64,000 nt of DNA from Candidatus Latescibacterota bacterium (GTDB taxonomy: Bacteria > Latescibacterota > UBA2968 > GCA-2709665): NCBI GenBank assembly GCA_963667175.2, contig CAXXXF010000006.1:128001-192000 (forward strand). Direction: 5' to 3'. The position numbers were made by a program, and so were the translations under genes. Position 1 is the stretch's first letter; each line of letters opens with the position of its first letter. The notes under the pieces are model-generated. The model was not told the origin of the DNA, made no database searches, and saw nothing but the letters and a program-made list of their open reading frames with translations. Shown here one piece after another: positions 49,213 to 64,000 of the stretch.

Positions 49213-49272
49213 AGCTGTCTCCACAGCCAGTCCGATCTGACCGGCTGATGTCCTGTCCCTGATATCAGTTGC

Positions 49273-49917: not shown

Positions 49918-50035
49918 GAATCATACTCCTGTATTTGGAAATTCAATCTTGCCGTGTGCAGGGATACCTATTTCGCCAATTAAGGCAGGCAGTTCGGCCG
50001 TAACGGCCGCATTCCACTCCCATGCAAATCGCGAG

Positions 50036-50717: not shown

Positions 50718-50722
50718 TAAAT

Positions 50723-50751
50723 ATTATAACCAAATGGATATAAATTGTCAA
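50723..50751 (-). promoter_or_regulatory. Consensus sigma70 promoter of the toxin-antitoxin operon
   Basis: TTGACA-17 nt-TATAAT; imperfect palindrome at 50724-50743. Confidence 0.85.
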
Positions 50752-50851
50752 GCGATGCGTAAATTGCACGGTCCAGGCGGCCCGTGCATCAGAGACGAGA
50801 GGTGCCCGGCCGAACAAACAGAATCCGGACGTTCGATCGGGCATCGCGGGT

Positions 50852-51370
50852 TCAAAGGTACTGATAATACGTTACCTGGGGCTGCGCAATGTTGAATCCC
50901 ACTTTCTCGTAGGCACGGCGGGCGGGGGCGTGGCCCTCGTCCAACCCGGTCCCCACGGCGGCGAACCGAAGGCCTTCAGATCGAAAAAGGTCCAATGCGT
51001 ACCGATACATCGCCGTACCGATCCCCTTTCCCTGTATTTCGAGGGCCACCGCGTTGTTCGTGATTCTACCCAGCGACTTCCCCCGATCGATCGAAAACGT
51101 CAGAAACGCGACCACCCTCGCCGTCTCCACCCTCTCAATAACCCGGAACCAGTCGGGATGTCGATTCCAGTGCCCGTGCACCGCAGCCGTCTTCTCCGCC
51201 TCCCAGTTCTCACACAACACGGCGTGCATTTCCCGGCCCATGATTCCGGCGGTACTGTCGTGAATCCGCTGCCACGCCTGCCTGGCGATCTCGCCCACCC
51301 GATCCAGGTCTGCCGGACCTGCGTGTCGGATTTGAAACCCCGGGGCGAGTTCGGCGTTCGGACGGCTCAT
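50852..51370 (-). CDS. GNAT family N-acetyltransferase
   Basis: AV....QGKGIG and ARRAYEKVGF motifs; GGAGG RBS. Confidence 0.88.
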   Translation of the reverse strand: MSRPNAELAPGFQIRHAGPADLDRVGEIARQAWQRIHDSTAGIMGREMHAVLCENWEAEKTAAVHGHWNRHPDWFRVIERVETARVVAFLTFSIDRGKSLGRITNNAVALEIQGKGIGTAMYRYALDLFRSEGLRFAAVGTGLDEGHAPARRAYEKVGFNIAQPQVTYYQYL

Positions 51371-51552: not shown

Positions 51553-52317
51553 ATGAAACTGGGAATTGTCACGTATCAGATCGCGAAAGACTGGGATGTA
51601 CCAACATTGATCGATATGTGCCGAACAACGGGACTCCAGGGCGTCGAACTTCGCACCACCCACGCCCACGGCGTGGAACCCGACCTCGCGCCGGACGAAC
51701 GTGCCGCTGTCAAAGGCCGGTTCGAAGACGCGGGCATTGATATCGTCGGACTCGGAAGCGTCTACGAATACCACGCCCCGGATCCCGAAACCGTGCGTCA
51801 GAACATCGACGGTACCATTGAATATGCGAGACTCGCCGCCGACCTGGGTTGCCCGGGCGTTAAGGTGCGTCCAAACGGATTGCAGACGGACAGAGGCGTT
51901 CCTGAAGAGCGGACACTCGAGCAGATCGGGCTGGCCTTAAGAGAATGCGGAGAGGCCGCCGAGGGTCTGGGTGTTCAGATCCGGGTTGAAGTCCACGGTC
52001 GGGACACCTGCGAACCCCGGCGCATGCGCCGCATTATGGACCATGCCGACCACGAGAACGTCTGGATCTGCTGGAACTCGAACCCCCAGGACATCGTCGA
52101 CGGTTCGGTCAGGGCGGGTTTCAACCTCCTGAAACACCGGCTCGGGCTCGTGCACATCAACGAACTGCACAAGTCCGAATACCCGTGGCGGGAACTCTTC
52201 GGTCTCCTGAAAGCCGAAGGCTACGACGGATACACGCTCGCGGAAATCCCCGACAGCCCGGAACCCGAACGCCTGTTGCGCTACTATCGGGCGCTCTGGC
52301 AGGCACTGATGGCCTGA
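51553..52317 (+). CDS. Sugar phosphate isomerase/epimerase (AP-endonuclease-2 TIM barrel)
   Basis: GVELR, VEVH, VHI and LAE motifs; AAGGAG RBS. Confidence 0.85.
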   Translation: MKLGIVTYQIAKDWDVPTLIDMCRTTGLQGVELRTTHAHGVEPDLAPDERAAVKGRFEDAGIDIVGLGSVYEYHAPDPETVRQNIDGTIEYARLAADLGCPGVKVRPNGLQTDRGVPEERTLEQIGLALRECGEAAEGLGVQIRVEVHGRDTCEPRRMRRIMDHADHENVWICWNSNPQDIVDGSVRAGFNLLKHRLGLVHINELHKSEYPWRELFGLLKAEGYDGYTLAEIPDSPEPERLLRYYRALWQALMA

Positions 52318-52395
52318 TCCGGCGTACTGCATCGAACTGCACAGGTGCGTGGCGGTACCATGCGTATTGAAGTTCGTGCCACGGAACTTCCACAT

Positions 52396-53703
52396 TCATG
52401 CCCAAACCTCCCCCGTTTTCAGCCCGAAGTTGATGCGGTTGTCATTCAGAATTGATGCCGCACGTCCTGGCGAAACATCGACTACTGACCCATCCGACTT
52501 AGTCAGCGTCCATGCTTCTGTGGTCAGGTTTCGCAGGCCGAAAAGATTTCGAACTTGTGAATTCTGAACGACTTCCGCGATCGGCGTGTCGTCATCTCGG
52601 GCCTGACCGACGTGGTAGCCGAACAGTCGGGTGGTGCGATTGAGCAGGATGATTTCGTCGTCAATTTTGATGCGCGGTGGGAGTACCAGCGGCTTCTTGC
52701 ATGACCAGCAGCGCTTGCCGCCAGCGGGCGCAGCGACCGCAGGCTCATAGAAATTCTCGGCGCCGCATCCGCACCGCCAGATGCTGTTGATGGCACTGGC
52801 AAGAGCCTTCCGCCACTCCGACTCACGCACGCGCCTGGGCGGATAGCGCAATCCGTCCGTGAACGATCGCCGGAACAAATCGGCCAGAAATCCCGGGTAC
52901 ATGTCGCGAAAAGCGATGGGGTTGTCGTGAATCCCGGGAACAGGACGGTTGGAATCGTCCTTCGTATCCCAGATGTAGAGCGGATTAGATCCGTATAGTC
53001 GCTCGTAGGCAGGCACATCAAGACAGCGTATGTTCGCTTCAAGTTGACCGTCGAGGGGATGACCGCCGTACAAAAGAAAAAACAGAAGTACCGCCAGCGA
53101 GTAGAGATCGGTATCGGCAGACGGAGCTTGCTCTCGACGAACCACCTCTGGGGCCATAAAACGCTGGGTACCCATCACACTGCCCGTTTCGGCGCCCGTA
53201 ATGTCAACGTTGTCGTTGTCACAAATGCGGATATCGCCGGTCTTCGGATCAAAGAACACATTGGTAAAGGAAATGTCCCGATAGCAGAGGCCGTGGCTGT
53301 GGAGGCGGAGAAAGCCATCCGCGAGTTTTCTGCCAGCCGTGAGCAATGCACGCATTGATGGGTGGATCCGCCGTGCCATGAAATCTTCCACGCCCCGGAA
53401 GTTGGGCTCTCGAAGGGCCATGATGTAGCCGTACCGTTCTGACTGGATATCTTTTACCATCGCCATCGGCCACAGGAAGTGCGGTGCAGGCGAGCCTTTT
53501 TCAACCAACCGCTCAAGTACCGCTTTTTGTTCCACGGTAGACGTATTCCGGTGATATATCTTCACCGCGACGGCCTCTCCGCCGTCAGTGGCTTTCCAGA
53601 CCTCGCCTTGTCCCCCCTGACCGAGCAGGCTATTGGCAGTGATGCGCGTTCCGTCTGTAATTTTCAGTAGTTCTGGCTTTCGCATTTGCGACTTCTCCAT
53701 CAT
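52396..53703 (-). CDS. Ser/Thr kinase of the TerY-P triad, with zinc ribbon and a possibly FHA-like C-terminal domain
   Basis: GQGGQGEV, AVK, YRDIS..N, CDNDN, MAPE and DLYSL motifs; CGC...CWSC. Confidence 0.9.
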   Translation of the reverse strand: MMEKSQMRKPELLKITDGTRITANSLLGQGGQGEVWKATDGGEAVAVKIYHRNTSTVEQKAVLERLVEKGSPAPHFLWPMAMVKDIQSERYGYIMALREPNFRGVEDFMARRIHPSMRALLTAGRKLADGFLRLHSHGLCYRDISFTNVFFDPKTGDIRICDNDNVDITGAETGSVMGTQRFMAPEVVRREQAPSADTDLYSLAVLLFFLLYGGHPLDGQLEANIRCLDVPAYERLYGSNPLYIWDTKDDSNRPVPGIHDNPIAFRDMYPGFLADLFRRSFTDGLRYPPRRVRESEWRKALASAINSIWRCGCGAENFYEPAVAAPAGGKRCWSCKKPLVLPPRIKIDDEIILLNRTTRLFGYHVGQARDDDTPIAEVVQNSQVRNLFGLRNLTTEAWTLTKSDGSVVDVSPGRAASILNDNRINFGLKTGEVWA

Positions 53704-54704
53704 TTCAAGATTGCTTTAGCCTTTACTGTTCCCACAACCCTGCAGAGGGCATCTCGGATCCATCGTACGATCCAGTTGTTCGATGTTGCCTCCAGATTCC
53801 CCGACGACGACTCGTCTGATTCCATCTCCGCTGGCCTCTCCATCGAAGTCCGATTCGGCTCATTTTGCGGCGAATTTTCCGACGATATTGTGGAAGAACC
53901 CGCAACAGTCTGGCTCGTTGATGGCGGCCAGTATATTAGCGCAAGGCCGATGTCGTCACCAGCTCCCTGAGCGGTGGTCTGCTCAAGGAAACCCCGCAAG
54001 TTCAAGGCGGAGACCCCATTCTTGCGTATAAGGTTGAGATAATCGGGGCCAATCTGCCTGAACGCGGCGTCCGTCGGGTATGATTTGCTGTATCCATCGG
54101 TCGAAAGCACGAGGAGTGTCTCTCCAACAGGTGCACGTAGGGCGCGCATACGAAGCGAGTACTCTGCCTCCGGAAGACACAGACTGGATGTTTCGTCGGC
54201 GAACACCGCAGGGTCGGCCGGTAGCAGGACTTCGGGTTTTCCATCCTTGGCGACGAGCAGAACATCGCCGTCTCCCAGTTGTCCAACCAACAGGAAGTCC
54301 GGCGTGGCTAAGGCGACTATGAGTGTCGATCCATAATCCGAGAGCGGCGATTCGTCGTCGCCAGCCTTGGCGCGTACTTGCGCTTTCCATTCCCGGACGA
54401 TATGCATGCGGAGGGGATGTTCGGCGCACTTCCGTACCTGCGTCAAATCTGAAGCGCATTCACCGAGATCCTCGGCGAACCGTACGAGCGAGGTAAGCGC
54501 CACCTGGACTGCGAGTCGGGCACCGACGTCGGCGTGTTTGCTCGTGCCATGGCCGTCAGCGACAGCCGCGACTACGGAGTCGGCGACCGCACAGACCCTC
54601 ACCTCATCCTGGCAGGGTTTACCGGACCGCATGTGGTTCGCACCGATGACACGCTCAAAGGCGAATGCGGGTCGTCGGCCGGTTTCTCGACTACCAGACG
54701 TCAT
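53700..54704 (-). CDS. PP2C-family phosphatase (YegK-like)
   Basis: G..H...KPCQD, ADGHG, GDG, STDG and DDI motifs; ATG at 54704 overlaps the vWA gene end. Confidence 0.88.
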   Translation of the reverse strand: MTSGSRETGRRPAFAFERVIGANHMRSGKPCQDEVRVCAVADSVVAAVADGHGTSKHADVGARLAVQVALTSLVRFAEDLGECASDLTQVRKCAEHPLRMHIVREWKAQVRAKAGDDESPLSDYGSTLIVALATPDFLLVGQLGDGDVLLVAKDGKPEVLLPADPAVFADETSSLCLPEAEYSLRMRALRAPVGETLLVLSTDGYSKSYPTDAAFRQIGPDYLNLIRKNGVSALNLRGFLEQTTAQGAGDDIGLALIYWPPSTSQTVAGSSTISSENSPQNEPNRTSMERPAEMESDESSSGNLEATSNNWIVRWIRDALCRVVGTVKAKAILK

Positions 54705-55407
54705 TGGCGTCTGCCAGGTCTGGCGCCGGAGGCGGAGGCAACGGCACATTGACGCCGGCGGGAGCAGCCGACGTCTGGCTCGCTGGAGCGGACGCGGCCT
54801 GCAACACTGCGGTGGACGCCCAACGGATATAATTGACCAGATCTTCTGCGTTGTCGGCCTGCAACGGTTGAATCTCTGCGTGACCGATGAAACGCTGGAG
54901 GACATTGTTATCCGCATCGCCAATTGCGATTGCAAGACGCACGGCCTTCTTGCCCCAGGGTTCGGCCATCAATGCTTCTAGCCCTTCATTGAAGTTATCC
55001 GTAGGTTGTCCGTCACTGATAAGCACCAGAACGGGAGGCAACGCACGCTCAGGCATCGGCGGCGTCTTGAGCGCGTCATCTGTGACCAGAGACAGGGCAC
55101 GCCCCATAGAGGTCATGCCATTGGCCGAAAGGTCAGTCCACTCAAACTCATCAACCGCTGTCGGCTGTGAAACGTGCCACTGGGCGCCGGATGAAAACTT
55201 GATCGCCCGCACAAGGACCTCCGCGTTCGGATTGCCGTGTGCGACCTCTCGCATATGCGGGATGGCCTCCCGGATCGCTTGATTGAGTGCTTGAATCTTG
55301 CGGCCCGCCATTGAGGACGAGCAATCCGCGATGAAGATGAAATGGAGGGGCCTGTTTGCGATCGGTCCGCCCGGGAGTTTGTGCTCCATTGACTCTTCTT
55401 GTTCCAT
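54691..55407 (-). CDS. terY: TerY-type von Willebrand factor A domain protein
   Basis: MIDAS DCSSSM, T.MG.AL, LISDGQPTD and AIAIG motifs. Confidence 0.9.
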   Translation of the reverse strand: MEQEESMEHKLPGGPIANRPLHFIFIADCSSSMAGRKIQALNQAIREAIPHMREVAHGNPNAEVLVRAIKFSSGAQWHVSQPTAVDEFEWTDLSANGMTSMGRALSLVTDDALKTPPMPERALPPVLVLISDGQPTDNFNEGLEALMAEPWGKKAVRLAIAIGDADNNVLQRFIGHAEIQPLQADNAEDLVNYIRWASTAVLQAASAPASQTSAAPAGVNVPLPPPPAPDLADANDVW

Positions 55408-55447
55408 AGATTCTCCTCCGTGTTGAAGTTGCTTTGACCTGTTACGC

Positions 55448-57694
55448 CTATGAAGGGTTGACGACAGCCACGAGTTCGGCCTGAAGTCGTTCCGCGACGG
55501 GCTTCGCTGGCTCGAGTTGATCCCAGGTGCGGATGGCGAGGAAGCGCTCTCCGCGAAATTCGTAGAGTTCCCCTATCTCTGGAGGCGCCTCGGACGGGAT
55601 CGGCGGATGCAAACTCACTTCGCATGTTGACGGGGCCGGAAGTCGCTGCGGCCTATCGAAACGGAATTCCTCCGATGCGACACGGTTGAAATTTTCAATC
55701 TCCCTGGAAAGGCGGGTAGCATCGGCCTGAAGGTCGGCAATCGCCTTCTTCGCCTCGGTCAAGCGAGCAGATACATCGTCGAGTTCGGACAGGGGAGGCA
55801 ACCAATCTGATAGGCTCTCTCGGTCCTGCTTGTTGCGGGCGACCATCCGTTCTGCGTCCCTCACGCGCTTATACGCTCTCTTTCGTGGTCCCTTGGACCG
55901 CTGGCCCTTATGCTCTCTCTTGAGAGACTTCCAGAGTGTGTGCGATTCCTCCAGCTTTGCCTCAAGATCAGCCCGCTGCTTGTCCAAAAAAGCCTTCCGC
56001 TCCTGGCGTTTGGTTGCCACAACGTTGTCAAGAGTAGCCTGCCCTTCCCGTCGTCTATCCCCCGCCGCGCCCTGGGCTTCCTCGTTTGCCGCTAGCTTCT
56101 GTCGTGCCTCACCCAACTTGGCGTTGGCGTCATTGACACGCTGTTCCCATACGCCTCGCTGATCTTCCCTCGCCTTGGCATCCTCTGCATCCTGCTGCTG
56201 ATTAAAGGCGTTACGCCGCATCCCATCCACGCGACCGACGATCCGGACGAGGCGTTCCATGCGCTCCTCGGCTTGATCCGATATCCCGCTTGGACGCGAC
56301 TCACCGATTTCGTCAAGTTCGTCTCTGAGTTGCTCTCGTTCCGAGGCCAGGTTCCAATCCCGAGACGGGAGCCATTGGCGAAGTTTGTTCAACAGCCCTT
56401 CTTGACTTTCAAGTTCGTTAAGCTCGTGGCGGAGAGTAACCACCGTGCGTGACGCCCACTCATCCACTGCTGTCCAGCTACGTACGATCTCGGCAGTGTG
56501 GGCGTCCGGCGGCAAGGCAGCCGGTACTCGCTGCCATCGGATGGTCGCTTCCAGGGCGAGAGGTGGAATATCTGGTAAGCGAGCGGGCCGAAGAGAGTCG
56601 AAACTCAGCAACGGCGCGTCCAAATCGCCGGCGTCCAACAGGACGGTCTGGACGACCTCGGCTGGCTGAGTCGCCCGGTCCAGCAACACTCTGCCTTTGA
56701 CAGCGTCGAGCCGTCGATCAGGATGGAACTCCCAATCCGGTTGTTTCGCCATCTGGTCGAGAGCGTGGATGAGATTTATCGCCTCGCCACGGGGCCATTC
56801 GACCTGGAGTGCGATCGGTGCTTCCACGAGATCCATAACCATACGCTGATATGTAACCGTCGTCCTCGGAAGGCCGGTATCAACCCACAGGACCCGGTGG
56901 CCTCGTTGGCAGAGTGCCTTGGGAAGATCGAGATCTACTGGGCCATCTCTCCCGCCGTTTGCCCAGGCGCCAGTGGGAGGAACAAACAGCACTCGGGCAC
57001 GTCCGGGGTCTACCGCCAACGGTGAAATCCTGATTTCGGCATCGGGAACCGGATCGTCGATATTTCCGTCCAGTCGGAGCCGGCCAGCCGCGAGCGAGAC
57101 GTCGGTTCCGGGAGGGTCAAATGGTGCTGCCAGCGGCTCTTGGAAGGAGACTTCACCACTGATGTCCGGCAGGGCTTCGCGCTCTGCATGGAACCAGAAC
57201 AGCACTCGAAATGCCTCAAACAGTGACCGTGCCAAGGCTCCCTCGACGGGAATCACCCATCTTTGATGCTCTGCGGTCGGCCCTACGACAAGTCGTCCTT
57301 CGCGTCCCTTATCAACGACGAGCCAGTCCGCAGGTGTGCGAGGACCCAAGCGCGTGAGGACCCGGTCACCCATACCCGCCGTTCTTTGAACCATTGCAGT
57401 ATCGGCCTCAAGAGCACGGTCCCCATAGATATAAAGTCGGCAGTGCACAGGAAGAGATTGTAAGACAGCGTTAAGCAATTTGTGCGAGGTTACTGTCGAA
57501 CCTATCGCGAGGACTACGATGTGAGCATCCTTCACGAGCGGCTGCACGTCATTGAAGGCGTAGGAGGGGTTCAAGTCGGTCCACGGAAGGTCAATATTCG
57601 CACCATTGCCCTGTTCCCAGAGCGGAAGCTCTTTCTCCCTCCGGTCAATCCGTTCCTCGTGTACTTCGGATTGAATCGGCCCGCTACGCATCAT
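55448..57694 (-). CDS. Hypothetical protein: possible degenerate PLD-like N-terminus and long coiled-coil C-terminus
   Basis: 748-aa ORF coupled by ATGA overlap; charged heptad-rich C-terminal third. Confidence 0.75.
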   Translation of the reverse strand: MMRSGPIQSEVHEERIDRREKELPLWEQGNGANIDLPWTDLNPSYAFNDVQPLVKDAHIVVLAIGSTVTSHKLLNAVLQSLPVHCRLYIYGDRALEADTAMVQRTAGMGDRVLTRLGPRTPADWLVVDKGREGRLVVGPTAEHQRWVIPVEGALARSLFEAFRVLFWFHAEREALPDISGEVSFQEPLAAPFDPPGTDVSLAAGRLRLDGNIDDPVPDAEIRISPLAVDPGRARVLFVPPTGAWANGGRDGPVDLDLPKALCQRGHRVLWVDTGLPRTTVTYQRMVMDLVEAPIALQVEWPRGEAINLIHALDQMAKQPDWEFHPDRRLDAVKGRVLLDRATQPAEVVQTVLLDAGDLDAPLLSFDSLRPARLPDIPPLALEATIRWQRVPAALPPDAHTAEIVRSWTAVDEWASRTVVTLRHELNELESQEGLLNKLRQWLPSRDWNLASEREQLRDELDEIGESRPSGISDQAEERMERLVRIVGRVDGMRRNAFNQQQDAEDAKAREDQRGVWEQRVNDANAKLGEARQKLAANEEAQGAAGDRRREGQATLDNVVATKRQERKAFLDKQRADLEAKLEESHTLWKSLKREHKGQRSKGPRKRAYKRVRDAERMVARNKQDRESLSDWLPPLSELDDVSARLTEAKKAIADLQADATRLSREIENFNRVASEEFRFDRPQRLPAPSTCEVSLHPPIPSEAPPEIGELYEFRGERFLAIRTWDQLEPAKPVAERLQAELVAVVNPS

Positions 57695-58791
57695 GCCTCC
57701 ATTCCCAAATCGGCACCCGCGGAGAGCAGCCATCTCGTCCGGGCGGCGAGGAGTCGACCATTCACCTCAGAGAGTACTGACGGATCGGGCGCATCTCCAG
57801 CCCATTTTGCCAGTGGGGTATCTTCGATAATGTCTGACCACTCCGACTGATAGGCATCGGGATCCATATATATGTCCTCAGCCTCGGCTTGAGCAACGAG
57901 AATAGCTGTTGCCCAGGTGCGAGCGTCACCCTTTGTTGCCGGGCCGACCGGTATGTCTCGGACCTCGACCGTATCGAACGGGCCGAAATCTCTGACCTGC
58001 TTATTCTTGTAACTCCTGGATCGAAGGAATGACTCGCGTCCGCCCTGCCCGACCTTTCCGTCATACGCTATGGCGAGGCGACCCACTTGCTCGTCCCATT
58101 GCGGTTCCCAGTCTGCGCAGAAATCGACCAACTTGCTCGGCTCCACCGACTCAGGTGAGGATCGGAACTTGCCGCGCCGCCCCCAGTCTCCGCTCACTTG
58201 CCCTTCAATCGTCCACTTGTTGCTTCCCGATCCAAGGTCTATATCCCACTGCAAATTCCCTGTGGTCATCTCTTCGACGCGGCAAACCGGACTTTGGCCT
58301 CTTTGTGCCGGGAACTTCGCAATGTTGAATCGCTTATCTTGGAAAATCGACGTGAATACCCGGTTGTGATTGGGTGAGAACCACGACGGAAGCTGCTCGT
58401 GGTTGCTGTAGTCGCGATCCCTCCTATCGCCAGGGGTGCGTTTGAAATCAAGGACATAACTTTCAAAGAGCGGATGGAATGCCACGAGCAGACGATATAC
58501 GCCCTGCTCCCGGGCAGGCGCCTCGCCCGACGACGCACAACGGCGTCCGAGAGCAGTCAGTACTCCGTTTCGATCAACAAGCTGAATATAGCGTAAGTGG
58601 CGCAACAGGTTTGCCCTTGCCCGACGCGACAGTCCCGGCAGGACAGTCTCAAACACGTCCTCTTCGAGAGCGCCATGGCCCCGAGCGGCGACGCATAAGA
58701 CCTGAAGATCCGGTCTCTTTTCCCAGACGGCGAGTTCTGCAAACACCGCAATGTTCCGGATCTCAACTTCTGCTTCGAGGCGGGCATTCAT
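57691..58791 (-). CDS. Hypothetical protein with probable N-terminal winged HTH
   Basis: NLLRHLRYIQLVDRNGVLTALG pattern; 4-nt overlaps with both neighbours. Confidence 0.75.
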   Translation of the reverse strand: MNARLEAEVEIRNIAVFAELAVWEKRPDLQVLCVAARGHGALEEDVFETVLPGLSRRARANLLRHLRYIQLVDRNGVLTALGRRCASSGEAPAREQGVYRLLVAFHPLFESYVLDFKRTPGDRRDRDYSNHEQLPSWFSPNHNRVFTSIFQDKRFNIAKFPAQRGQSPVCRVEEMTTGNLQWDIDLGSGSNKWTIEGQVSGDWGRRGKFRSSPESVEPSKLVDFCADWEPQWDEQVGRLAIAYDGKVGQGGRESFLRSRSYKNKQVRDFGPFDTVEVRDIPVGPATKGDARTWATAILVAQAEAEDIYMDPDAYQSEWSDIIEDTPLAKWAGDAPDPSVLSEVNGRLLAARTRWLLSAGADLGMEA

Positions 58792-61700
58792 CGCACACTT
58801 CCAAGCTCAAATAACGGTGTAGCATCTGCAAGCGCATTGAGTTCTTCGGATGGGCAATCCTCGGCGAAGTACTTCCGATGACCAAAGACGACGAGCAAGA
58901 ACCGGGCTCGGGTGATCCCCACGTTGAGCCGATTGGGGCTGTCCATGTGACCGGGCCGAGAGGTGTTCCTGAGACTCAGCAACACAAAGTCAGCTTCTCG
59001 ACCCTGGAATCGGTCAACTGTCGCGCAAGCAATCGTCGTGTTGGGAAGCGCGAAACGCGTCTCCGCACGTGCCTTTCCGGTGAGTTGTCGGAGCATGTTT
59101 CGCGTACCCAGTTCCTGCCGGTTATAGAACGAGAGACAGGCTACCGTCCAGTACTTGCCATCGGTTCTCTGGTGAGATTCGGCGTAATCCCGCCAGGCCA
59201 CCAACCAACGACGCATGGCTTCGATCTCGGCCTGGTTGATACCGCGCTCATCATGGCCGCGTACGTCTGTCCACACTCGTCGTGCCGGCGCCCTGAGCGC
59301 GAAGGACCAACCGTCTCGTTTGTCGCGTTCGTCAAGGGTATTTGCGTCTCTTAATGCTACTCCCTCGTAGAATTGGTCTCGAGGTAATCTCGAAATGTCC
59401 GGATGCATTCGGTGTTGAAATTCAAGTATTACTGCCCGCTCCTTCCATACGTCCTGCGGAATCGCCTCGGTGAGCGCGCTCCGGCAGCGGACGCGACGGT
59501 CGCTCCTGCCTATCCGGAAAGACTCAATCGCGCTGCGTACCCCTACGTCGCGGATTGCGTCAATGGCTTGAGGGACCCATTTAGAGTAAGGATCCACAGC
59601 TGGCATAAGGCTATCAATCTCGTCCTGTCGTCGTTCACGCTGTCCATCGTCTCGAGCACAGGCAAGCTGATGAACCCTTCCAAGCCGCCACGATACCTGC
59701 TTGGCCCAGGATTCCTCGCGCAGGAAATCCCGCTGGCGACTGGCCAACTCACGAGCCGCGCGGAATTGACGCCTCTGCTCCCAAATGGGTTTCGAAAAAC
59801 TGCCGCGGCGGTCAAGCCATCTTGCGAATTGGAACGCACGGGCTGAATCTAGATCCCAGTCGCGCAGTGCAAGTCCATCCGGCGGCAGATAAGGCGCAAC
59901 GCGATCTCGCAATTCAGGTGGAAATAGTATCCAGTCGGCTGCCAGTAAATGCAGCGCTACGGGTTGTCCGGCCTCAATATCTGTAATGGACACTTCATTG
60001 TCCGTGGGATTGCCTTGGACAACGCGCACGATCTCAGGCATGCGGTCGCTGTGCGTTACCCGAACCTCGATTTCCGCGCACAGCGCGTTGAGTACGTCGT
60101 CTCCCTCTTCGATCAACCATCTGACCCTTCTAAACCCGGCCTCCGGGCGCTGCAGCCGGAACAGGATCAGCAACGCCACCTGGTGGGCGTCGGAGAGTTT
60201 TGCTTCGTTTTCATCGCTGACCTCGGCAATGCTGGCTTCAAGATCCTTGGGTTCTGAAAAAGGCGGAAGTTGTCGCACGTCGCCGACCACAATCCACTTG
60301 CTGGCAAGCTGGGCGGGGACCAGAAACTCCTGGAACGTCGTCTTGCTCGCTTCATCAATGATCAGGACGTCAAAGTAAGGCCAACGCGGCCCTGTATCGT
60401 TCTCGCGCCTATGGCTTAACCGACGTATGTAGGGGTGCGCAAGGATACCCGTGGATGTGCCACAGGTGAGATTTACGGAAGAAAGAATGGTCGCTTCTGC
60501 GACCCGCTCCAAGTTGAAATCGTCGTCCCGGTCCGCGAAGACTCCGGCAGAACGCCAGGTTTCCGTCAATGCCGCGATTCGTTCATCGATCTGCACGTCG
60601 CGGATGGTTTGGTCCACCCGGTCCGCAAGCCCGATACGGACCGCCTCGACTTGCTCAAATTTGCCGACGAGGCGCTCCAGCACATTGTCCACGGCCACGT
60701 GTGTCGTGGAGCAGAGCAACACATTTAATCCCTGGTCGATGAACTGAAGCACCAATTCACAGATGGCGTGCGTCTTGCCCGATCCGGGCGGTCCTTCGAG
60801 AAACGCGAAGTCCGGTGTGCCAAGGGCTTTTTCTACGAACTCCCGTTGTTGGATAGTTCCCGACCAATGCTCGTCGCCAAGCAAATACCAGCGGGAAACG
60901 GACTCTGGTTGGCACCTCGGCCAACGAACCCTGTTGGGCGCTTCGCAAAGTCTGAGTAGGGCTTGATGGTGGGGTAGCGGGCTATCCCTTAGGCTAAATA
61001 TCGCCTGCCGCTGGCGTTGTAGGTTCGAAATGCTGGAAGGGATGAATAATGTCGATTCCTCGGCCGGGAGCCGCTCTAACTCCAGCTGGTAGTTGTCGCG
61101 ACGGAAATTAAATACCTCGAAGGCGTCATTGCGGTTGTTACCCCGTCTCGTGCGGACCTCGCGAACGCCCTCTTCCATATAGGCCGTTCGGATGTCCAGT
61201 GCCGCCTCGCTATCCACTTCTTCAGGGGGAAGGAGTTGAATCCAGACCCCGCGCCGTCGCCGGTTACCCCCCTCGTCTTCCGACCAGGCCCATCGGACAC
61301 CGTTGTCGGCGATGAAAAAGCCTTGATCTGGCAGTTTCTCCAGCGTCAGGTCTCGTTGACCGTTCCAGGGAATCTTCTCCCTGCCGACACGGAGACACGT
61401 GGCGCCCTCATGAGGGTCGGCCACCTGATGGGGTAGTTCGGCGCCATGCTTGTCTTCAAGGACAACATGGTCACAGCCTTTAATGACCAGGAAAATACGG
61501 TCAGCTTGTTCCGGGCGTTGGTACAGATGTGCGACCGTGCCGTCGCGACGCCGTGCGACCAACGTATCTGGCCAGATCGGATCTGTGGGAGTTAATGTGC
61601 AGGGACTGCCTTTCCAGAACACCTGTTCATCGGGATCCACCTCACTGTCAAGCACGAGGAGCAAACCGCTGGGGACTCGCTCAACGCGCTTGGGGACTAT

Positions 61701-61997
61701 CGGACGGTACTGTTCGCCGACGAACAACGGCATGTCCGGCACGTCGTCTGACCAACCTTCAAGGCGATACCAGAAGCCCTCTGCCTCCATGACCAGGAGC
61801 GAATCCATAGGGGTGAGCCGCAACGGATACTCACGCGGGACAGGCTCCCACCGCACTGACCTCGACTCGCGCTTCCTGGCGGCATCAAGCGCAGACTTCA
61901 GGTATGCAGTGTAGGGCCACAGGCTACCGTGAGCCTGGTTTGCCACGGCACGGGCGCGCTTCGGATGAACGCAGGCGGTGAAGTAAAGCGGTTTCAT
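58788..61997 (-). CDS. SF1B Upf1/DNA2/NAM7-like helicase
   Basis: GPPGSGKT, STTHVAVDN, DEAS, VGDVRQLPP, QHRMHP, TVDRFQGRE and NRLNVGITRAR. Confidence 0.93.
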   Translation of the reverse strand: MKPLYFTACVHPKRARAVANQAHGSLWPYTAYLKSALDAARKRESRSVRWEPVPREYPLRLTPMDSLLVMEAEGFWYRLEGWSDDVPDMPLFVGEQYRPIVPKRVERVPSGLLLVLDSEVDPDEQVFWKGSPCTLTPTDPIWPDTLVARRRDGTVAHLYQRPEQADRIFLVIKGCDHVVLEDKHGAELPHQVADPHEGATCLRVGREKIPWNGQRDLTLEKLPDQGFFIADNGVRWAWSEDEGGNRRRRGVWIQLLPPEEVDSEAALDIRTAYMEEGVREVRTRRGNNRNDAFEVFNFRRDNYQLELERLPAEESTLFIPSSISNLQRQRQAIFSLRDSPLPHHQALLRLCEAPNRVRWPRCQPESVSRWYLLGDEHWSGTIQQREFVEKALGTPDFAFLEGPPGSGKTHAICELVLQFIDQGLNVLLCSTTHVAVDNVLERLVGKFEQVEAVRIGLADRVDQTIRDVQIDERIAALTETWRSAGVFADRDDDFNLERVAEATILSSVNLTCGTSTGILAHPYIRRLSHRRENDTGPRWPYFDVLIIDEASKTTFQEFLVPAQLASKWIVVGDVRQLPPFSEPKDLEASIAEVSDENEAKLSDAHQVALLILFRLQRPEAGFRRVRWLIEEGDDVLNALCAEIEVRVTHSDRMPEIVRVVQGNPTDNEVSITDIEAGQPVALHLLAADWILFPPELRDRVAPYLPPDGLALRDWDLDSARAFQFARWLDRRGSFSKPIWEQRRQFRAARELASRQRDFLREESWAKQVSWRLGRVHQLACARDDGQRERRQDEIDSLMPAVDPYSKWVPQAIDAIRDVGVRSAIESFRIGRSDRRVRCRSALTEAIPQDVWKERAVILEFQHRMHPDISRLPRDQFYEGVALRDANTLDERDKRDGWSFALRAPARRVWTDVRGHDERGINQAEIEAMRRWLVAWRDYAESHQRTDGKYWTVACLSFYNRQELGTRNMLRQLTGKARAETRFALPNTTIACATVDRFQGREADFVLLSLRNTSRPGHMDSPNRLNVGITRARFLLVVFGHRKYFAEDCPSEELNALADATPLFELGSVR

Positions 61998-62002
61998 TCT
62001 TC

Positions 62003-62122
62003 TCAGGCTTCCAAGCGGCGTACTTTCATCCCATTAAGGAGCGATTCATGGATCATCTCGTCTTTCCTGAACCGGGCAATGAACCACTGTGATAGGTCCC
62101 ATCGATTCGAAGGGGGAGACAC
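62003..62122 (-). CDS. Possible 39-aa small ORF leading the helicase operon
   Basis: AGGAG before GTG; stop lies 5 nt before the helicase ATG. Confidence 0.3.
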   Translation of the reverse strand: MSPPSNRWDLSQWFIARFRKDEMIHESLLNGMKVRRLEA

Positions 62123-62516
62123 CCGCGCTCCTAGGCGTCGCAAAACGCGACGGTCGACCCCGAACCTGCGTCTAATCTCCGGCGATCAATATCCGGCAAT
62201 AGAATTCCATCGCCTTCCTGATCCGGCAATTTGCCAAATGCATCCAGAGTGGATGCCAGTACCGCGGAGCGCAGCAATCCCCTGAAGGTCTCCGCGATGC
62301 CTGAACAACACAACTCCAGGCAGCCATGGCGGCATAGCCACCGGATCTGCTCGAAATCTTGCCGGAACTTGAACGAAGCGACAGGGACGGCCGGTTGGAC
62401 TTCATCTCGGCGTGTCGATATGGCGGACGAGAATACCGGACCGCGCCGGAATGCCGTCGAACGGTTAAAAACTGCCGAGAGCGGCGCGTGTTACCGTCCC
62501 GGCAATCGGAGTTTCC

Positions 62517-64000
62517 CTACAGGCCCGGCACCCGGTAGCTCCAGACTTCGGAACTGTGGGTGAAATAGAGCCGGCGCTTGTGGATCACGATTCCCGCGTT
62601 CGCGTTCACGGGGGGTGTTCCCAGCAGTTTGTGTTCGAACGTGCCCGGCTCGATACGTACAATCGCGTTGCGGAACAGCGCATAGATCCTGTCGTCAGGT
62701 CCCGTCGCCAGGATCCTGGGGGCCTGCTGTCCAGCCAGAGCGCCATAAGGCAGTTTCTTCTCGAAGTGGACGATCTCCCGAGATTCGGGATCGAACACGA
62801 AAAACGCGGATCCCGAGGCCAGCCCGTAGATCAGGCCGTCCGGCCCCAGGATCACGTCGGTGATTTGCGCGGCGCCAGGCACAACCGCTTCGCGATACAG
62901 TACTCGTTTTTCTTCCAGATCCAGAACATAGAGTTCCGCCTGCTTCGCGTGCGCCTCCCCTCCCGTGCCGGGGCTGATCGTGGTGCCCGCGACGATTTTC
63001 CCGTCGGGCAACGCCGCGAGCGAGACCGTGCTGTGTTCGGGAAGCAGATCCTCGTGCGTCAGCAGCTCGTGGCTCTCCGTTTCAGTATCCCAGATCAGCA
63101 TCCCCCCGCCCGTCAGTCCGTACCCGGGCGTTCCCGTCATGACAAGCCGCCGTCCGTCCGGATGGGCCAGCAACGCGTGGGGCCGGATAATCGTGGGACT
63201 TACGGATATCAGGTCCCGTGGATTCGGATCCACCGTCCCCCGATCGTCCCACGGCCGGGACGGATCGTATTCCCAGAGCCTGCCGCCCGCATACTCCCCG
63301 CAATAGACATTATCACCCTGAACTGCCAGCGCGTTCAGGTGTCCGACAAGGTCCCATAGACCGCGGTGGACGAACGTGTCCGCCTGCGTATCGTATGTAT
63401 AGAACCGGAGCGGATGTCCAGTGGATCCGTGGATCCTGCCGTCCGGACCTTCCGCGATCGAGAGGATGGGGGATCCGGCCGATTCATAGTCGATTTCCAG
63501 ACGTCTTACCGTTCCCGCCTCGTTGATTTCGACGTACTTCTCCGGAAGGTTGATTTCATCCAGCGACCAGCCATCCGGGAAATTGTCCAGGACCGCCTCC
63601 TGTTCGCCGGCCAGAATCGGTCTCTCGGGTGCGGGAGCGTCCACCTGAGTTACCACCCCTTCAAACAGGGACCACCACGGTCCCTCACTATAGGACCTCC
63701 CGTACACTCTTCCGTCCTTCCCCCGGTACACCGTGGATGCGCCGTGCCGACGGTCGGTCTCGGGAATCAATGCGGCACGTTCGCCTGTTGCCGGATTGAA
63801 TGAAACGATCTGCCCGCGCGTGGAACCTATGCCCACGTAGACCCACCCGGAACTGTCCACCGCGATCGTCCTCGGGTACTGCGGCCAACTCTCATCGTTC
63901 AGCGGGCCGTGGTTCTCCAGTTTTCCGCTGTCCGGAACATGACTCAGCAACTCGCAGTTGGGATACGCGGACGTCCAGACCCTGCCGTTATCGTCCTCTG
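62517..64000 (-). CDS. Beta-propeller repeat protein, 5'-truncated by the window edge
   Basis: Repeated G.DG.IY and YDP blade motifs; frame remains open to 64000. Confidence 0.75.
   Translation of the reverse strand, partial: EDDNGRVWTSAYPNCELLSHVPDSGKLENHGPLNDESWPQYPRTIAVDSSGWVYVGIGSTRGQIVSFNPATGERAALIPETDRRHGASTVYRGKDGRVYGRSYSEGPWWSLFEGVVTQVDAPAPERPILAGEQEAVLDNFPDGWSLDEINLPEKYVEINEAGTVRRLEIDYESAGSPILSIAEGPDGRIHGSTGHPLRFYTYDTQADTFVHRGLWDLVGHLNALAVQGDNVYCGEYAGGRLWEYDPSRPWDDRGTVDPNPRDLISVSPTIIRPHALLAHPDGRRLVMTGTPGYGLTGGGMLIWDTETESHELLTHEDLLPEHSTVSLAALPDGKIVAGTTISPGTGGEAHAKQAELYVLDLEEKRVLYREAVVPGAAQITDVILGPDGLIYGLASGSAFFVFDPESREIVHFEKKLPYGALAGQQAPRILATGPDDRIYALFRNAIVRIEPGTFEHKLLGTPPVNANAGIVIHKRRLYFTHSSEVWSYRVPGL

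What the first reader, a model, noticed from the sequence alone, without database searches (positions are those of the whole stretch)
52396..62122. Candidate six-gene defence operon: Upf1-like helicase + wHTH + degenerate-PLD/coiled-coil protein + TerY-P triad
Seen: six co-oriented genes, with 4-nt start/stop overlaps at 58788, 57691 and 53700, a 14-nt overlap at 54691 and one 40-nt gap. The block sits between two core-looking genes and appears by eye less GC-biased than its flanks. Known: the vWA-PP2C-kinase triad (TerY-P) is a described anti-phage/stress module, and Mokosh type I combines a Upf1-like helicase, a Ser/Thr kinase and a PLD protein. Inference: this locus joins a three-gene helicase module to TerY-P in one operon, possibly a phosphorylation-gated helicase effector. 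I do not recognise this exact six-gene arrangement as a named system.
Basis: partly seen in the sequence, partly recalled or inferred. Interest (0 to 1): 0.85.

Follow-up and report, generated by a model that had tools for sequence, protein, structure and literature searches.

The report
Mobile helicase and kinase-switch defence cassette
This is a real, horizontally moving block of six genes that joins an RNA/DNA-unwinding motor, a DNA-binding adaptor and a disabled nuclease look-alike to a kinase/phosphatase signalling trio; it is most likely an unnamed relative of known anti-virus systems of bacteria.

Summary
Six co-oriented, tightly coupled genes lie at 52396-61997 on the minus strand. They encode a UPF1-like SF1 helicase, a 366-aa winged-helix protein, a 747/748-aa protein with a two-lobed PLD fold that has lost the HKD motifs plus a long coiled coil, a vWA protein, a PP2C phosphatase and a Ser/Thr kinase with a zinc ribbon.

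The same six genes in the same order occur in 12 of 12 uncut loci labelled with four phyla. In this genus the block is a 10.1-kb insertion: four complete relatives have an empty site.

The helicase/adaptor/pseudo-PLD trio also occurs without the triad. Sister cassettes carry an AAA ATPase and a PLD-fused adaptor, or an intact tandem PLD nuclease. A structure model supports binding of the adaptor's C-terminal helices to the first pseudo-PLD lobe (score 0.77, best control 0.00).

The closest published systems are Type II/III CoCoNuTs (cnuH-cnuE plus TerY-P) and Mokosh type I. The cassette meets the definition of neither: it has no McrBC, no kinase-helicase fusion and no active PLD.

Verdict: probably a defence cassette, a new variant of a known kind. 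Function, target and effector are untested.

The parts
52357..62480 (.). Inserted block of about 10.1 kb: the six genes, 39 nt downstream of them and 483 nt upstream. It is absent from four same-genus genomes, where the two flanking genes abut.
   Evidence: flank matches 4-70 bp apart in G455, G457, G458, G459; junction alignment. Only a 4-nt GCGG stands at both junctions. No direct or inverted repeat of 9 nt or more is shared by the ends. No integrase lies inside.
58788..61997 (-). UPF1-like SF1 helicase, 1069 aa. The N-terminal region of about 380 aa has no assigned family. The RecA1 domain holds Walker A (402-409), Walker B DEAS (548-551) and motif III (572-579). A stretch of about 255 aa (595-850) is unassigned. 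RecA2 covers 852-1041.
   Evidence: Pfam AAA_11 8.5e-29 and AAA_12 1e-25. PADLOC MkoA PDLC03920 4.6e-76, matching profile positions 521-843 of 1112. The nearest solved chains are SMUBP-2, Sen1, Upf1 and Dna2. Motifs I and III are identical, and II, V and VI nearly so (single conservative changes), in all loci that cover them. No Pfam hit for residues 1-380 or 595-850.
57691..58791 (-). p366, the adaptor. A winged helix-turn-helix (residues 25-90) sits at the tip of a long beta ribbon. A beta-rich middle part follows, then C-terminal helices (287-361).
   Evidence: AlphaFold2 pLDDT 87.1. VIA-align gives wHTH matches of Z about 8, rmsd about 2 A, over about 64 residues. Foldseek finds no whole-chain match. 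No Pfam, PADLOC or NCBIfam hit. A profile search finds 422 representative proteins at E<=0.001, many of about 555 aa with an added C-terminal domain. In the complex model, residues 303-366 touch p747.
55448..57694 (-). p747, the pseudo-PLD coiled-coil protein. Residues about 30-345 form a two-lobed PLD-superfamily fold without HKD motifs. Residues 401-672 are long helices, the longest being 471-593. A proline-rich linker and a small conserved C-terminal domain (708-742) follow.
   Evidence: AlphaFold2 pLDDT 86.8. Foldseek: PLD4, F13 and PLD3 at E 1e-6 to 1e-5. VIA-align: Z 15.0, rmsd 4.5 A, 268 residues against 7e0m_B. No invariant His or Lys among 24 homologues. No conserved HxKxxxxD; a relic FHPxRRLxD has His323 in 23 of 24 sequences, Lys at the Lys position in 3 of 24 and Asp in 12 of 24. 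94 homologues of 37-100% identity were found.
54691..55407 (-). vWA (TerY-like) protein, 238 aa, with an intact MIDAS site (D28-x-S-x-S, Thr about 99, Asp132). It has a proline-rich tail ending in a conserved D-V-W. It is the most conserved protein of the block.
   Evidence: Pfam VWA 1.7e-7 and VWA_2. Motif conservation over 15 sequences. Identity to the window of 74-100% across loci; mean pairwise identity 78.6%.
53700..54704 (-). PP2C-type phosphatase, 334 aa from the start supported by homologues. The acidic motifs DGHG, GDGD and STDGY are largely conserved, and the C-terminal tail is variable.
   Evidence: Pfam PP2C_2 1.2e-42. Conservation shown. The start at 54704 fits the homologue alignments and the ATG read.
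52396..53703 (-). Hanks-type Ser/Thr kinase (residues 18-243) with a C-terminal zinc ribbon (C311-x-C313 ... C332-x-x-C335) and a further unassigned part of about 95 aa.
   Evidence: Pfam Pkinase 2.9e-22. Nearest solved chain is PknA. The Gly loop, VAVK Lys48, YRD..N, DND and APE motifs and the four Cys are conserved in 14 sequences. No Pfam hit for residues 240-435.
61998..62480 (-). Non-coding leader of the block, 483 nt upstream of the helicase. It presumably holds the promoter. It is not conserved outside the closest relative.
   Evidence: blastn of 14 upstream regions: only L001 matches, at 86%. No sigma-70-like site was found here.

Best explanation
The block is a self-contained, horizontally transferred conflict (most likely anti-phage) cassette built from two modules.

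Module 1 is a nucleic-acid surveillance machine shared with a wider, mostly unnamed family. It has an active UPF1-like 5'-3' helicase and a winged-helix adaptor (p366). It also has a scaffold (p747) whose two-lobed PLD fold has lost the catalytic HKD motifs and carries a coiled-coil arm with a helix of about 120 residues. The adaptor's C-terminal helices dock on the first pseudo-PLD lobe. Inferred: the three proteins work as one complex that loads on invader RNA or single-stranded DNA.

Module 2 is a TerY-P triad. The kinase (with a zinc ribbon), the PP2C phosphatase and the MIDAS-bearing vWA protein form an on/off phosphorylation switch. The phosphatase holds the system off. The vWA protein acts as sensor or anchor.

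Sister cassettes keep an intact PLD nuclease, either fused to the adaptor or in the third gene slot. This class has none but has gained the triad. I therefore take the output here to be helicase action plus kinase-driven shutdown of the infected cell or of the invader, rather than PLD cleavage. About 40% of my belief within this explanation rests on that reading. The rest rests on an unrecognised nuclease, for instance in the unassigned 380-aa helicase N-terminus.

Shown: gene content, intact motifs, folds, strict synteny, insertion, patchy spread. Supported by a model only: adaptor-scaffold binding. Inferred: defence role, target, gating, output.
For: Unit character:
- The same six genes in the same order occur in 12 of 12 uncut loci, and 3 of 3 contig-cut loci carry what fits. 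The loci are labelled Latescibacterota, Pseudomonadota, Myxococcota and Planctomycetota.
- Pairwise identity matrices of trio and triad proteins correlate (Spearman 0.53-0.88).
- The gene junctions are 4-nt overlaps, a 14-nt overlap and one 40-nt gap.

Mobility and accessory status:
- There is an empty site in 4 of 4 same-genus complete genomes that lack the block.
- p747 was found in 6 of 168 genomes of the phylum and in 1 of 14 other genomes of the genus.
- GC and GC3 are lower than in the host genes.
- In the helicase tree, phylum labels are not clades; a gammaproteobacterial row nests with the window at 96/96 support.

Conflict context in the flanks of other loci: a kinase-SAVED-SMODS gene, an ABC-3C CTD2 domain, a SocA/Panacea antitoxin, AAA_22/AAA_35 and AAA_16 NTPases, DUF499, a serine recombinase and a transposase.

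Active parts:
- The helicase motifs are identical or nearly so in all loci.
- The kinase, PP2C and MIDAS motifs are largely conserved.

Folds:
- p366 has a winged helix.
- p747 has a PLD fold at Z 15.0 without conserved HKD.

Binding model: ipSAE 0.77 in 3 of 3 runs against a best control of 0.00. The runs agree in at least 94% of contacts and the partner's pLDDT is at least 80. That mark was reached by 116 of 157 solved complexes and 2 of 215 mismatched pairs. Invariant residues sit in the interface: R85, Y87, F161, L164, F165, P175, L187 and P190 of p747, and R351, W354 and D361 of p366.

Modularity:
- 0 of 42 sister loci carry vWA or PP2C. Of these, 27 show both an adaptor and a p747-like gene (24 of the 27 with the helicase on the same contig). 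An AAA ATPase gene lies upstream in 17.
- 3 Myxococcota loci have helicase, adaptor and a tandem PLDc_2 protein with two HAKxxxxD motifs.

Kin with proven defence:
- Mokosh needs both helicase ATP binding and the PLD active site (passages read).
- A seven-gene Type II CoCoNuT protects P. aeruginosa from RNA phages PP7 and LeviOr01 and from DNA phage MPK7 (passages read).
Against: - No member of this six-gene class has been tested against phages, and no expression data were found.
- No nuclease or other toxic effector could be identified, so the output step is a guess.
- No sequence-level link to bona fide CnuH or CnuE was made. I found no McrBC-linked locus among those fetched. The likeness to CnuE rests on the paper's description ('elongated wHTH') and on gene order.
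- In this window the neighbours are metabolic genes, not a defence island. The only conflict-type genes nearby are a Gp49/HTH_37 toxin-antitoxin-like pair 1.7 kb away.
- The cassette carries no recombinase or terminal repeats, so how it moves is unexplained.
- PADLOC models gave no hit for the vWA and PP2C proteins.
- Taxon labels are those of metagenome bins and can be wrong.
Confidence: 0.58

Rival explanations
1. Two independent systems are stacked side by side: a Mokosh-like helicase trio and a stand-alone TerY-P defence triad. Each works alone, and they are merely co-transferred.
For: The trio occurs without the triad in 42 of 42 sister loci. The CoCoNuT paper states that TerY-P-like modules act as stand-alone antiphage systems (citing Gao et al. 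2020) and may simply augment the core (passages read). The only real intergenic gap in the block, 40 nt with its own ribosome-binding site, lies exactly between the two modules.
Against: Within this class the two modules are never seen apart: 12 of 12 uncut loci, in fixed order. They co-diverge. The trio of this class lacks the PLD His motif that sister adaptors carry and the intact PLD of the third class. It therefore seems to lack an output of its own.
Confidence: 0.13
2. It is a nuclease system after all. The pseudo-PLD keeps a non-canonical active site (His323 and the conserved Arg, Asp and Glu residues), or the helicase N-terminus is an RNase. The cassette would then be a Mokosh/CoCoNuT-type helicase-nuclease whose triad only licenses cleavage.
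For: His323 is kept in 23 of 24 class members, in a FHPxRRLxD stretch with the His-to-Asp spacing of an HKD motif. p747 also has invariant R85, R114, D122, R155, E172, R283, Q296 and E298. CnuH helicases of CoCoNuTs carry an RNase-toxin-like domain before the helicase, found only by structure. Residues 1-380 of this helicase are unassigned.
Against: A canonical PLD site needs two HKD motifs. Lobe 1 has none, and the Lys of lobe 2 is present in only 3 of 24 sequences. His323 is not kept in the sister class. Several of the invariant lobe-1 residues are explained by the modelled adaptor interface. No nuclease family matched any part.
Confidence: 0.17
3. It is not defence. It would be an accessory RNA- or DNA-surveillance or stress-signalling module that benefits the host in some habitats, or a maintenance function of an unrecognised mobile element. 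TerY-P triads were first tied to tellurite and stress responses.
For: TerY-P triads were first described with tellurite resistance and a proposed metal-sensing switch (as the CoCoNuT paper cites Anantharaman et al. 2012, whose text I could not read). UPF1-like helicases also serve RNA quality control. The neighbours in this window are metabolic genes.
Against: The distribution is patchy (6 of 168 genomes), with an insertion/empty-site pattern and cross-phylum spread. p366 and p747 evolve fast: mean pairwise identity is 53% and 50%, against 79% for vWA. Defence-type neighbours occur in several other loci. All this fits conflict systems better than housekeeping.
Confidence: 0.12

Closest known systems
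Type II / III-A CoCoNuT systems (Bell, Sahakyan, Makarova, Wolf, Koonin, eLife 2024, PMC11090510; section 9 read in full, sections 10 and 16 in passages or in full)
   Same: Both have a UPF1-like SF1 helicase followed by a gene for an elongated winged-helix protein linked to a coiled coil and a nuclease-type domain. Both have a TerY-P triad whose kinase ends in a zinc ribbon. The paper also notes that helicases of this family are generally encoded with a downstream wHTH-effector gene. A seven-gene Type II locus protects P. aeruginosa from phages (bioRxiv 10.64898/2026.04.06.716636, passages read).
   Different: There is no McrB-like GTPase (CnuB) and no McrC-like protein (CnuC) in the cassette or within 10 kb in 14 loci. 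There is no HEPN domain. The winged helix and the coiled-coil/PLD part are two proteins. Sequence-level orthology to CnuH or CnuE was not tested.
Type III-C CoCoNuT CnuE (same paper)
   Same: A winged-helix module is combined with two PLD-family domains and a coiled coil. Its PLD domain 1 matches Streptomyces PLD 1V0W (supplementary file 1 of the paper), as p747 does by structure.
   Different: The paper says that TerY-P is never found in Type III-C and that McrBC and an Hsp70-like CnuD are present. Here the triad is present, McrBC and CnuD are not, and the PLD motifs are lost.
Mokosh type I (MkoA + MkoB; Millman et al. 2022, bioRxiv 10.1101/2022.05.11.491447, passages read)
   Same: The same three domain kinds are used: a Ser/Thr kinase, a UPF1-like (COG1112) helicase and a PLD-fold protein. 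The helicase scores 255 bits on the PADLOC MkoA model PDLC03920.
   Different: The kinase is a separate gene, not fused to the helicase, and only profile positions 521-843 of the MkoA model are matched. p747 matches no MkoB model and lacks the PLD active site that Mokosh needs. Three extra genes are present (wHTH adaptor, vWA, PP2C).
Unnamed sister cassettes found here
   Same: Both sister classes share the helicase (the AAA class alignable end to end, HMM positions 2-1067 with E about 1e-295) and the p366-type adaptor. The AAA class also shares a p747-type pseudo-PLD coiled-coil protein with the same C-terminal mini-domain. The first class is AAA ATPase - helicase - adaptor fused to a PLD-like domain - pseudo-PLD. 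The second is helicase - adaptor - tandem PLDc_2 - sigma54-type AAA+. Two earlier unchecked notes of this scan describe such helicase-adaptor-PLD trios.
   Different: They have no vWA, PP2C or kinase triad (0 of 42 loci). Instead they carry a classical AAA ATPase (PF00004) upstream, a His-bearing PLD-like domain on the adaptor, DUF1257 plus a small radical-SAM-like gene, or an intact PLDc_2 nuclease and a sigma54-type AAA+ protein.
Stand-alone TerY-P defence triad (Gao et al. 2020, known to me only through the citation in PMC11090510)
   Same: Three adjacent genes encode vWA, PP2C and a Ser/Thr kinase.
   Different: According to the CoCoNuT paper, the kinase of the stand-alone system ends in an OB fold. 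Here it ends in a zinc ribbon plus an unassigned part of about 95 aa, and the triad is bound to the helicase trio.

Membership tests
CoCoNuT (Type II/III) | McrB-like GTPase (CnuB) encoded in the system | tested here: not met
   None of the six proteins has an AAA_5/McrB domain. None of 95 flanking ORFs in 14 related loci has one at E<=1e-5.
CoCoNuT (Type II/III) | McrC-like partner (CnuC, DUF2357/McrBC family) encoded in the system | tested here: not met
   None is present in the cassette or the flanks. The own genome has two PF10117 genes, but on contigs C15 and C3, whereas the window is on C6. The PF09823 search rang in no control genome and is uninformative.
CoCoNuT (Type II/III) | UPF1-like SF1 helicase CnuH with N-terminal SmpB-like OB and RNase-toxin-like domains | tested here: inconclusive
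   UPF1-like class is shown with motifs intact. The fold of the N-terminal 380 aa was not obtained: there was no Pfam hit and the Atlas gave only a weak lead to the UPF1/SMUBP-2 1B domain at 0.83, below its threshold.
CoCoNuT (Type II/III) | CnuE: elongated wHTH fused to a coiled coil and a nuclease (HEPN or PLD) | tested here: inconclusive
   A winged helix on a long beta ribbon is present in p366. The coiled coil and PLD fold are on the next protein, p747. The two are modelled to bind. There is no HEPN domain, and no sequence comparison with a real CnuE was possible.
CoCoNuT (Type II/III-A accessory) | TerY-P triad with a kinase-zinc ribbon fusion | tested here: met
   VWA, PP2C_2 and Pkinase are adjacent. 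The CxC...CxxC motif is invariant in 14 sequences.
Mokosh type I | MkoA: Ser/Thr kinase and COG1112 helicase in one protein | tested here: not met
   The helicase has no kinase domain. It matches only profile positions 521-843 of the MkoA model. The kinase is a separate gene five genes downstream.
Mokosh type I | MkoB: PLD nuclease with an intact active site | tested here: not met
   p747 has no PADLOC hit at E<=0.01 and no conserved HxKxxxxD.
TerY-P triad | Adjacent vWA (MIDAS), PP2C and Hanks-type Ser/Thr kinase genes | tested here: met
   Pfam hits. The MIDAS DxSxS/T/D residues, the PP2C acidic motifs and the kinase catalytic motifs are largely conserved.
PLD superfamily (for p747) | Two-lobed PLD fold | tested here: met
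   Foldseek E 1e-6 at probability 1.00. VIA-align Z 15.0, rmsd 4.5 A, 268 residues, with single-lobe matches to NucT and TrmB at Z about 12. This rests on a predicted model of pLDDT 86.8.
PLD superfamily (for p747) | HxK(x)4D catalytic motif in both lobes | tested here: not met
   There is no invariant His or Lys in 24 homologues. The window protein has no such motif. 18 of 94 homologues match the pattern, where checked (1 row, L004) within the relic FHPxRRLxD stretch. The control tandem PLDc_2 proteins of loci L090, L092 and L093 each show two HAKxxxxD motifs.
UPF1-like SF1B helicases | Motifs I, II, III, V and VI, and best similarity to Upf1/SMUBP-2/Sen1/Dna2 | tested here: met

The most novel reading that the evidence does not exclude
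In this branch of the Mokosh/CoCoNuT-type helicase systems the nuclease has been turned into a pseudo-enzyme scaffold, and the killing or blocking step has passed to a eukaryote-like signalling triad. The dead PLD would serve as a docking platform for the adaptor, and perhaps for the kinase. This would parallel human FAM83 proteins, which use a dead PLD domain to anchor CK1 kinases (that function is recalled, not from a call). The FAM83B domain is among the Foldseek matches at E 5e-4. The system would then be a nuclease-free, phosphorylation-output immune system that reads invader RNA or ssDNA with a UPF1-like motor.
Probability: 0.15. Interest if true: 0.8.

Novelty: new variant of a known kind. 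Interest (0 to 1): 0.6.

Why it matters
The finding defines a compact, strictly conserved six-gene unit that is clonable as one 10.1-kb piece. It links three lines of work: Mokosh, CoCoNuT and TerY-P.

It shows that the helicase/winged-helix adaptor/PLD-type trio is a mobile core. That core swaps its accessory module between a kinase triad, an AAA ATPase, a sigma54-type AAA+ protein and radical-SAM-like genes. It also swaps the state of its nuclease between intact, fused and dead.

The dead-nuclease-plus-kinase form is a natural experiment on two open questions: what TerY-P triads do in such systems, and whether UPF1-like defence helicases need a nuclease at all. The modelled adaptor/pseudo-PLD interface gives concrete residues to mutate.

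Tried and rejected
- PHROGs gave only insignificant hits for p366, p747 and vWA.
- tblastn of p747 and p366 against 72,556 plasmid records found no match.
- Foldseek on the whole p366 model found nothing at E<=0.001. Only the wHTH was placed, by VIA-align. The beta-rich middle and the helical end of p366 remain unassigned and were barely tested.
- hhalign of the sister adaptors' C-terminal PLD-like domain against the p747 alignment gave probability 0.7%, so no profile-level likeness.
- ESM Atlas on the helicase N-terminus gave scores of 0.83-0.84, below the tool's 0.9 line, so a lead only. On the kinase C-terminus it returned unnamed clusters only.
- Pfam on isolated unassigned parts (helicase 1-380 and 595-850, kinase 240-435, p366 95-366, p747 C-terminus) gave nothing.
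- The promoter/terminator scan found fewer sites than in shuffles and none in the leader.
- The leader is not conserved among loci except in L001.
- The terminal repeat search found only one shared 8-mer and a 4-nt GCGG.
- The sequencing-run search listed no RNA holder, and I laid no reads.
- The PF09823 search rang in no control genome.
- Alignments A3 and A4 were too diverse for the locus scan, so a five-sequence alignment was used instead.
- Literature: a search for 'PLuB system' (the NCBIfam name of a weak helicase hit) found 0 papers. A search for 'CnuH' returned only unrelated hospital papers. A search for 'TerY' + 'PP2C' + 'UPF1' found only the CoCoNuT preprint.
- Anantharaman et al. 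2012 (PMC4104200), the original TerY-P paper, is not held. It may already describe this association, and I could not check.
- No McrBC-linked (true CoCoNuT) locus turned up among the 15 + 42 + 17 loci fetched. A direct sequence comparison with CnuH or CnuE was therefore not made.

Full report
**Observation.**

- helicase, 58788-61997
- p366, 57691-58791
- p747, 55448-57694
- vWA, 54691-55407
- PP2C, 53700-54704
- kinase, 52396-53703

I read the junctions directly. There are ATGA overlaps at 58788-58791, 57691-57694 and 53700-53703. There is a 14-nt overlap at 54691-54704. A single 40-nt gap with a GGAGGAG ribosome-binding site precedes the vWA gene.

Two ORFs that seem to flank the block on the same strand need comment:
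- The 152-aa ORF 51937-52395 lies antisense to a real plus-strand gene, 51553-52317 (AP_endonuc_2, 1.1e-24). I treat it as spurious.
- The gene at 62517-63998 is shared only with the closest relative. It belongs to the host backbone.

**What the six proteins are.**

*Helicase.*
- It has Pfam AAA_11/AAA_12.
- It scores 255 bits on the PADLOC MkoA model, but only over profile positions 521-843.
- Among solved chains it is nearest to SMUBP-2, Sen1, Upf1 and Dna2.
- Motifs I and III are identical, and II, V and VI nearly so, in every locus that covers them.
- Its first 380 residues and residues 595-850 match no family. The Atlas gave only a sub-threshold lead to the UPF1/SMUBP-2 1B domain.

*p366.*
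- It has no family in Pfam, PADLOC or NCBIfam.
- It folds with confidence (pLDDT 87.1).
- Residues 25-90 are a winged helix of the MarR/PadR kind (Z about 8, rmsd about 2 A, about 64 residues).
- The winged helix is carried on a long two-stranded ribbon (strands 2-25 and 90-106).
- The rest of the protein found no match.

*p747.*
- It also has no family, and it also folds with confidence (pLDDT 86.8).
- Residues about 30-345 are a two-lobed PLD-superfamily fold. Foldseek gives 1e-6 to PLD4, F13 and PLD3. VIA-align gives Z 15.0, rmsd 4.5 A and 268 residues to 7e0m_B, with single-lobe matches to NucT and TrmB at Z about 12.
- Residues 401-672 are long helices, including one of 123 residues.
- A small conserved domain closes the chain.
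- No His or Lys is invariant among 24 homologues.
- The only HKD-like trace is FHPxRRLxD in lobe 2. It has His in 23 of 24 sequences, Lys at the Lys position in 3 of 24 and Asp in 12 of 24.
- As a control, true tandem PLDc_2 proteins of related loci each show two HAKxxxxD motifs.

*The triad.*
- The vWA protein keeps a full MIDAS site.
- The PP2C largely keeps its acidic motifs.
- The kinase keeps its catalytic motifs and a four-Cys zinc ribbon.

**Is it one unit?**

A scan of one genome per species with the p747 alignment returned 15 loci. tblastn with the six proteins gave these results:
- All six genes, in the same order, in 12 of 12 loci whose contig spans the block.
- Every gene that fits in the 3 loci cut by contig ends.

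The record titles name Latescibacterota, Gammaproteobacteria and other Pseudomonadota, Myxococcota and Planctomycetota. Flanking genes are shared only with L001.

Pairwise identity matrices of the six proteins correlate (Spearman 0.53-0.88; pairs are not independent). p366 and p747 evolve fastest (mean pairwise identity 53% and 50%) and vWA slowest (79%).

**Is it mobile?**

- In the window's phylum, p747 occurs in 6 of 168 genomes searched, counting the window's own. In its genus it occurs in 1 of 14 others.
- In four complete same-genus genomes without it, the two flanking genes lie 4 to about 70 bp apart. The junction alignment places the insertion at about 52357-62480.
- Only GCGG is shared by the two junctions. 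There is no terminal repeat of 9 nt or more and no recombinase gene inside.
- The block has 57.9% GC against 60.8% for the rest of the window. Its GC3 is 0.61-0.66 against mostly 0.69-0.81.
- On a helicase tree the phylum labels are not clades. A row labelled Gammaproteobacteria nests with the window and L001 (96/96 support). Bin labels can err.
- The leader is not conserved beyond L001.

**The wider family.**

A profile of p366 finds 422 representative proteins at E<=0.001. Many are about 555 aa, with p366 as their first 365 residues. Their extra domain carries an invariant His in a PHDRY...MSNS pattern that resembles a single PLD lobe. It has no Pfam match and no profile-level likeness to p747.

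Forty-two metagenome loci of this class were annotated with HMMs built from the window's cassette and with Pfam:
- None of the 42 has a vWA or PP2C gene.
- 27 show both an adaptor and a p747-like gene (24 of the 27 with the helicase on the same contig); the rest are cut by contig ends or by my ORF picking.
- The helicases align end to end with the window's, over HMM positions 2-1067.
- In 17 loci an upstream gene of 63-91% mutual identity encodes a classical AAA ATPase.
- Some loci add DUF1257 and a small radical-SAM-like gene.

Among 401 Myxococcota genomes, 19 hold a p366 relative. Most are of the AAA class. Three loci read helicase - adaptor - intact tandem PLDc_2 - sigma54-type AAA+.

No McrB or McrC gene was seen in any of these loci, nor in 95 flanking ORFs of 14 loci of the six-gene class. 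The window's genome has McrC-family genes only on other contigs.

So a trio of helicase, adaptor and PLD-type protein is the mobile core. The accessory module and the state of the nuclease vary. The six-gene class is the one with no intact PLD motif anywhere and with a TerY-P triad.

**Binding.**

I tested one open claim: that the adaptor binds the pseudo-PLD. The head of p747 (1-470) and its C-terminal part (660-747) were given as two chains, with p366 as the partner, all with alignments.
- The score was 0.77 in 3 of 3 runs against a best control of 0.00.
- The runs agree in at least 94% of contacts, and the partner's pLDDT is at least 80.
- The mark is reached by 116 of 157 solved complexes and by 2 of 215 mismatched pairs. 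The tool warns that this calibration holds only roughly for my alignments and for a three-chain job.
- The interface joins p366 residues 303-366 to lobe 1 of p747 (57-60, 85, 87, 108-112, 128, 161-166, 174-179, 187-194).

Many of these are the invariant residues of both families. The same residues are kept in the sister class. This gives a reason for the conservation of a lobe that has lost its catalytic motif. It is support from a model, not a measurement.

**Comparison with what is known.**

[quoted passage not shown] They comprise a UPF1-like helicase CnuH, a downstream CnuE (elongated wHTH, coiled coil, HEPN), McrB/McrC homologues and, almost always, a TerY-P triad whose kinase ends in a zinc ribbon.
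- Type III-C has a wHTH with two PLD domains and never TerY-P.
- The paper remarks that relatives of CnuH are generally followed by wHTH-effector genes.
- The present cassette shares that logic and the triad. It lacks the McrBC pair that defines CoCoNuTs, has no HEPN, and splits the wHTH from the coiled-coil/PLD part.

*Mokosh type I.* It joins a kinase-helicase fusion to an active PLD nuclease. Here the kinase is separate and the PLD is dead.

*Experimental evidence in the relatives.*
- Mokosh protects against phages.
- A seven-gene Type II CoCoNuT protects P. aeruginosa from RNA phages PP7 and LeviOr01 and from DNA phage MPK7.

*Earlier notes and literature.*
- Earlier unchecked notes of this scan describe helicase-adaptor-PLD trios and typical Type II CoCoNuTs in other genomes. 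They agree with the family picture drawn here.
- A full-text search for TerY + PP2C + UPF1 returns only the CoCoNuT preprint.
- The original TerY-P paper could not be read.

**How it most likely works.**

Shown:
- an intact motor
- an intact kinase, phosphatase and MIDAS site
- a DNA/RNA-binding-type winged helix
- a dead two-lobed PLD with a long coiled coil
- co-inheritance
- insertion

Model-supported: the adaptor docks on the dead PLD.

Inferred:
- The trio forms a complex that loads on invader RNA or single-stranded DNA.
- The triad is the switch, with the phosphatase keeping it off and the vWA protein sensing or anchoring.
- The output is helicase action plus kinase-driven shutdown, because this class alone lacks any intact PLD motif and alone has the triad.

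A cryptic nuclease remains a live alternative. It could lie in the unassigned helicase N-terminus, where CnuH carries a structurally detected RNase-like domain, or in a non-canonical site around His323.

**Verdict.**

This is a real, strictly conserved, mobile six-gene cassette. It is most probably a defence system and a new variant within the Mokosh/CoCoNuT/TerY-P sphere. It is not a member of any of those families as defined. It is worth cloning, but it is not a new category.

Noticed in passing
window 50036-50717 (minus strand): A Gp49-like (PF05973, 4.8e-23) gene and an HTH_37 (8.1e-25) gene overlap by 11 nt (50349-50359). They look like a HigB/HigA-type toxin-antitoxin pair. They sit in the lowest-GC stretch of this part of the window (0.53-0.55 at 49500-51000), about 1.7 kb from the cassette. 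This may be a separate small insertion.
   Followed up: no
L015:2492-5437 (-), L022:1923-4910 (-), L024:727-3669 (-): A large Pkinase-SAVED-SMODS protein (about 980-995 aa) is encoded divergently, just upstream of the helicase cassette. It appears in one six-gene locus and in two loci of the AAA sister class. This is a recurring neighbour that hints at a link with cyclic-oligonucleotide signalling.
   Followed up: partly
L044:5344-6566, L054:3602-4664, L049:9058-10190, L027:6703-7797, L040:4722-5285, L055:6593-7153, L082:13305-14321: In several sister cassettes the pseudo-PLD gene is followed by a DUF1257 gene and a small (about 186-212 aa) radical-SAM-like Fer4_12 gene. In L082 the Fer4_12 domain is part of a 338-aa protein. 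This is an accessory module of unknown role.
   Followed up: no
L038:4548-9155, L046:101-4900, L051:886-5646: The helicases in these loci are 1535-1599 aa. The window-type helicase occupies the last 1070 or so residues, behind an N-terminal extension of about 440-517 aa of unknown nature. This may be a fusion with the upstream ATPase.
   Followed up: no
window 54691-54810 (C-terminus of the vWA protein): The vWA protein ends in a proline-rich tail whose last residues, D-V-W, are conserved across phyla. It looks like a short docking motif.
   Followed up: no
window 48394-49224 and 49273-49917 (minus strand): Two adjacent ORFs both match the NAD-dependent epimerase family, and the same split appears in L001. 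This is either two short paralogues or one gene broken in both relatives.
   Followed up: no
G457:C1:3310763-3314526: One same-genus genome carries two tandem copies of the gene that flanks the insertion site on the right (window 62517-63998), at 82-83% identity to the window.
   Followed up: no
G000 contigs C15:556338-557300 and C3:549283-550137: The window's genome has two McrC-family (PF10117) genes elsewhere. It therefore also carries McrBC-type restriction systems that are not linked to this cassette.
   Followed up: no
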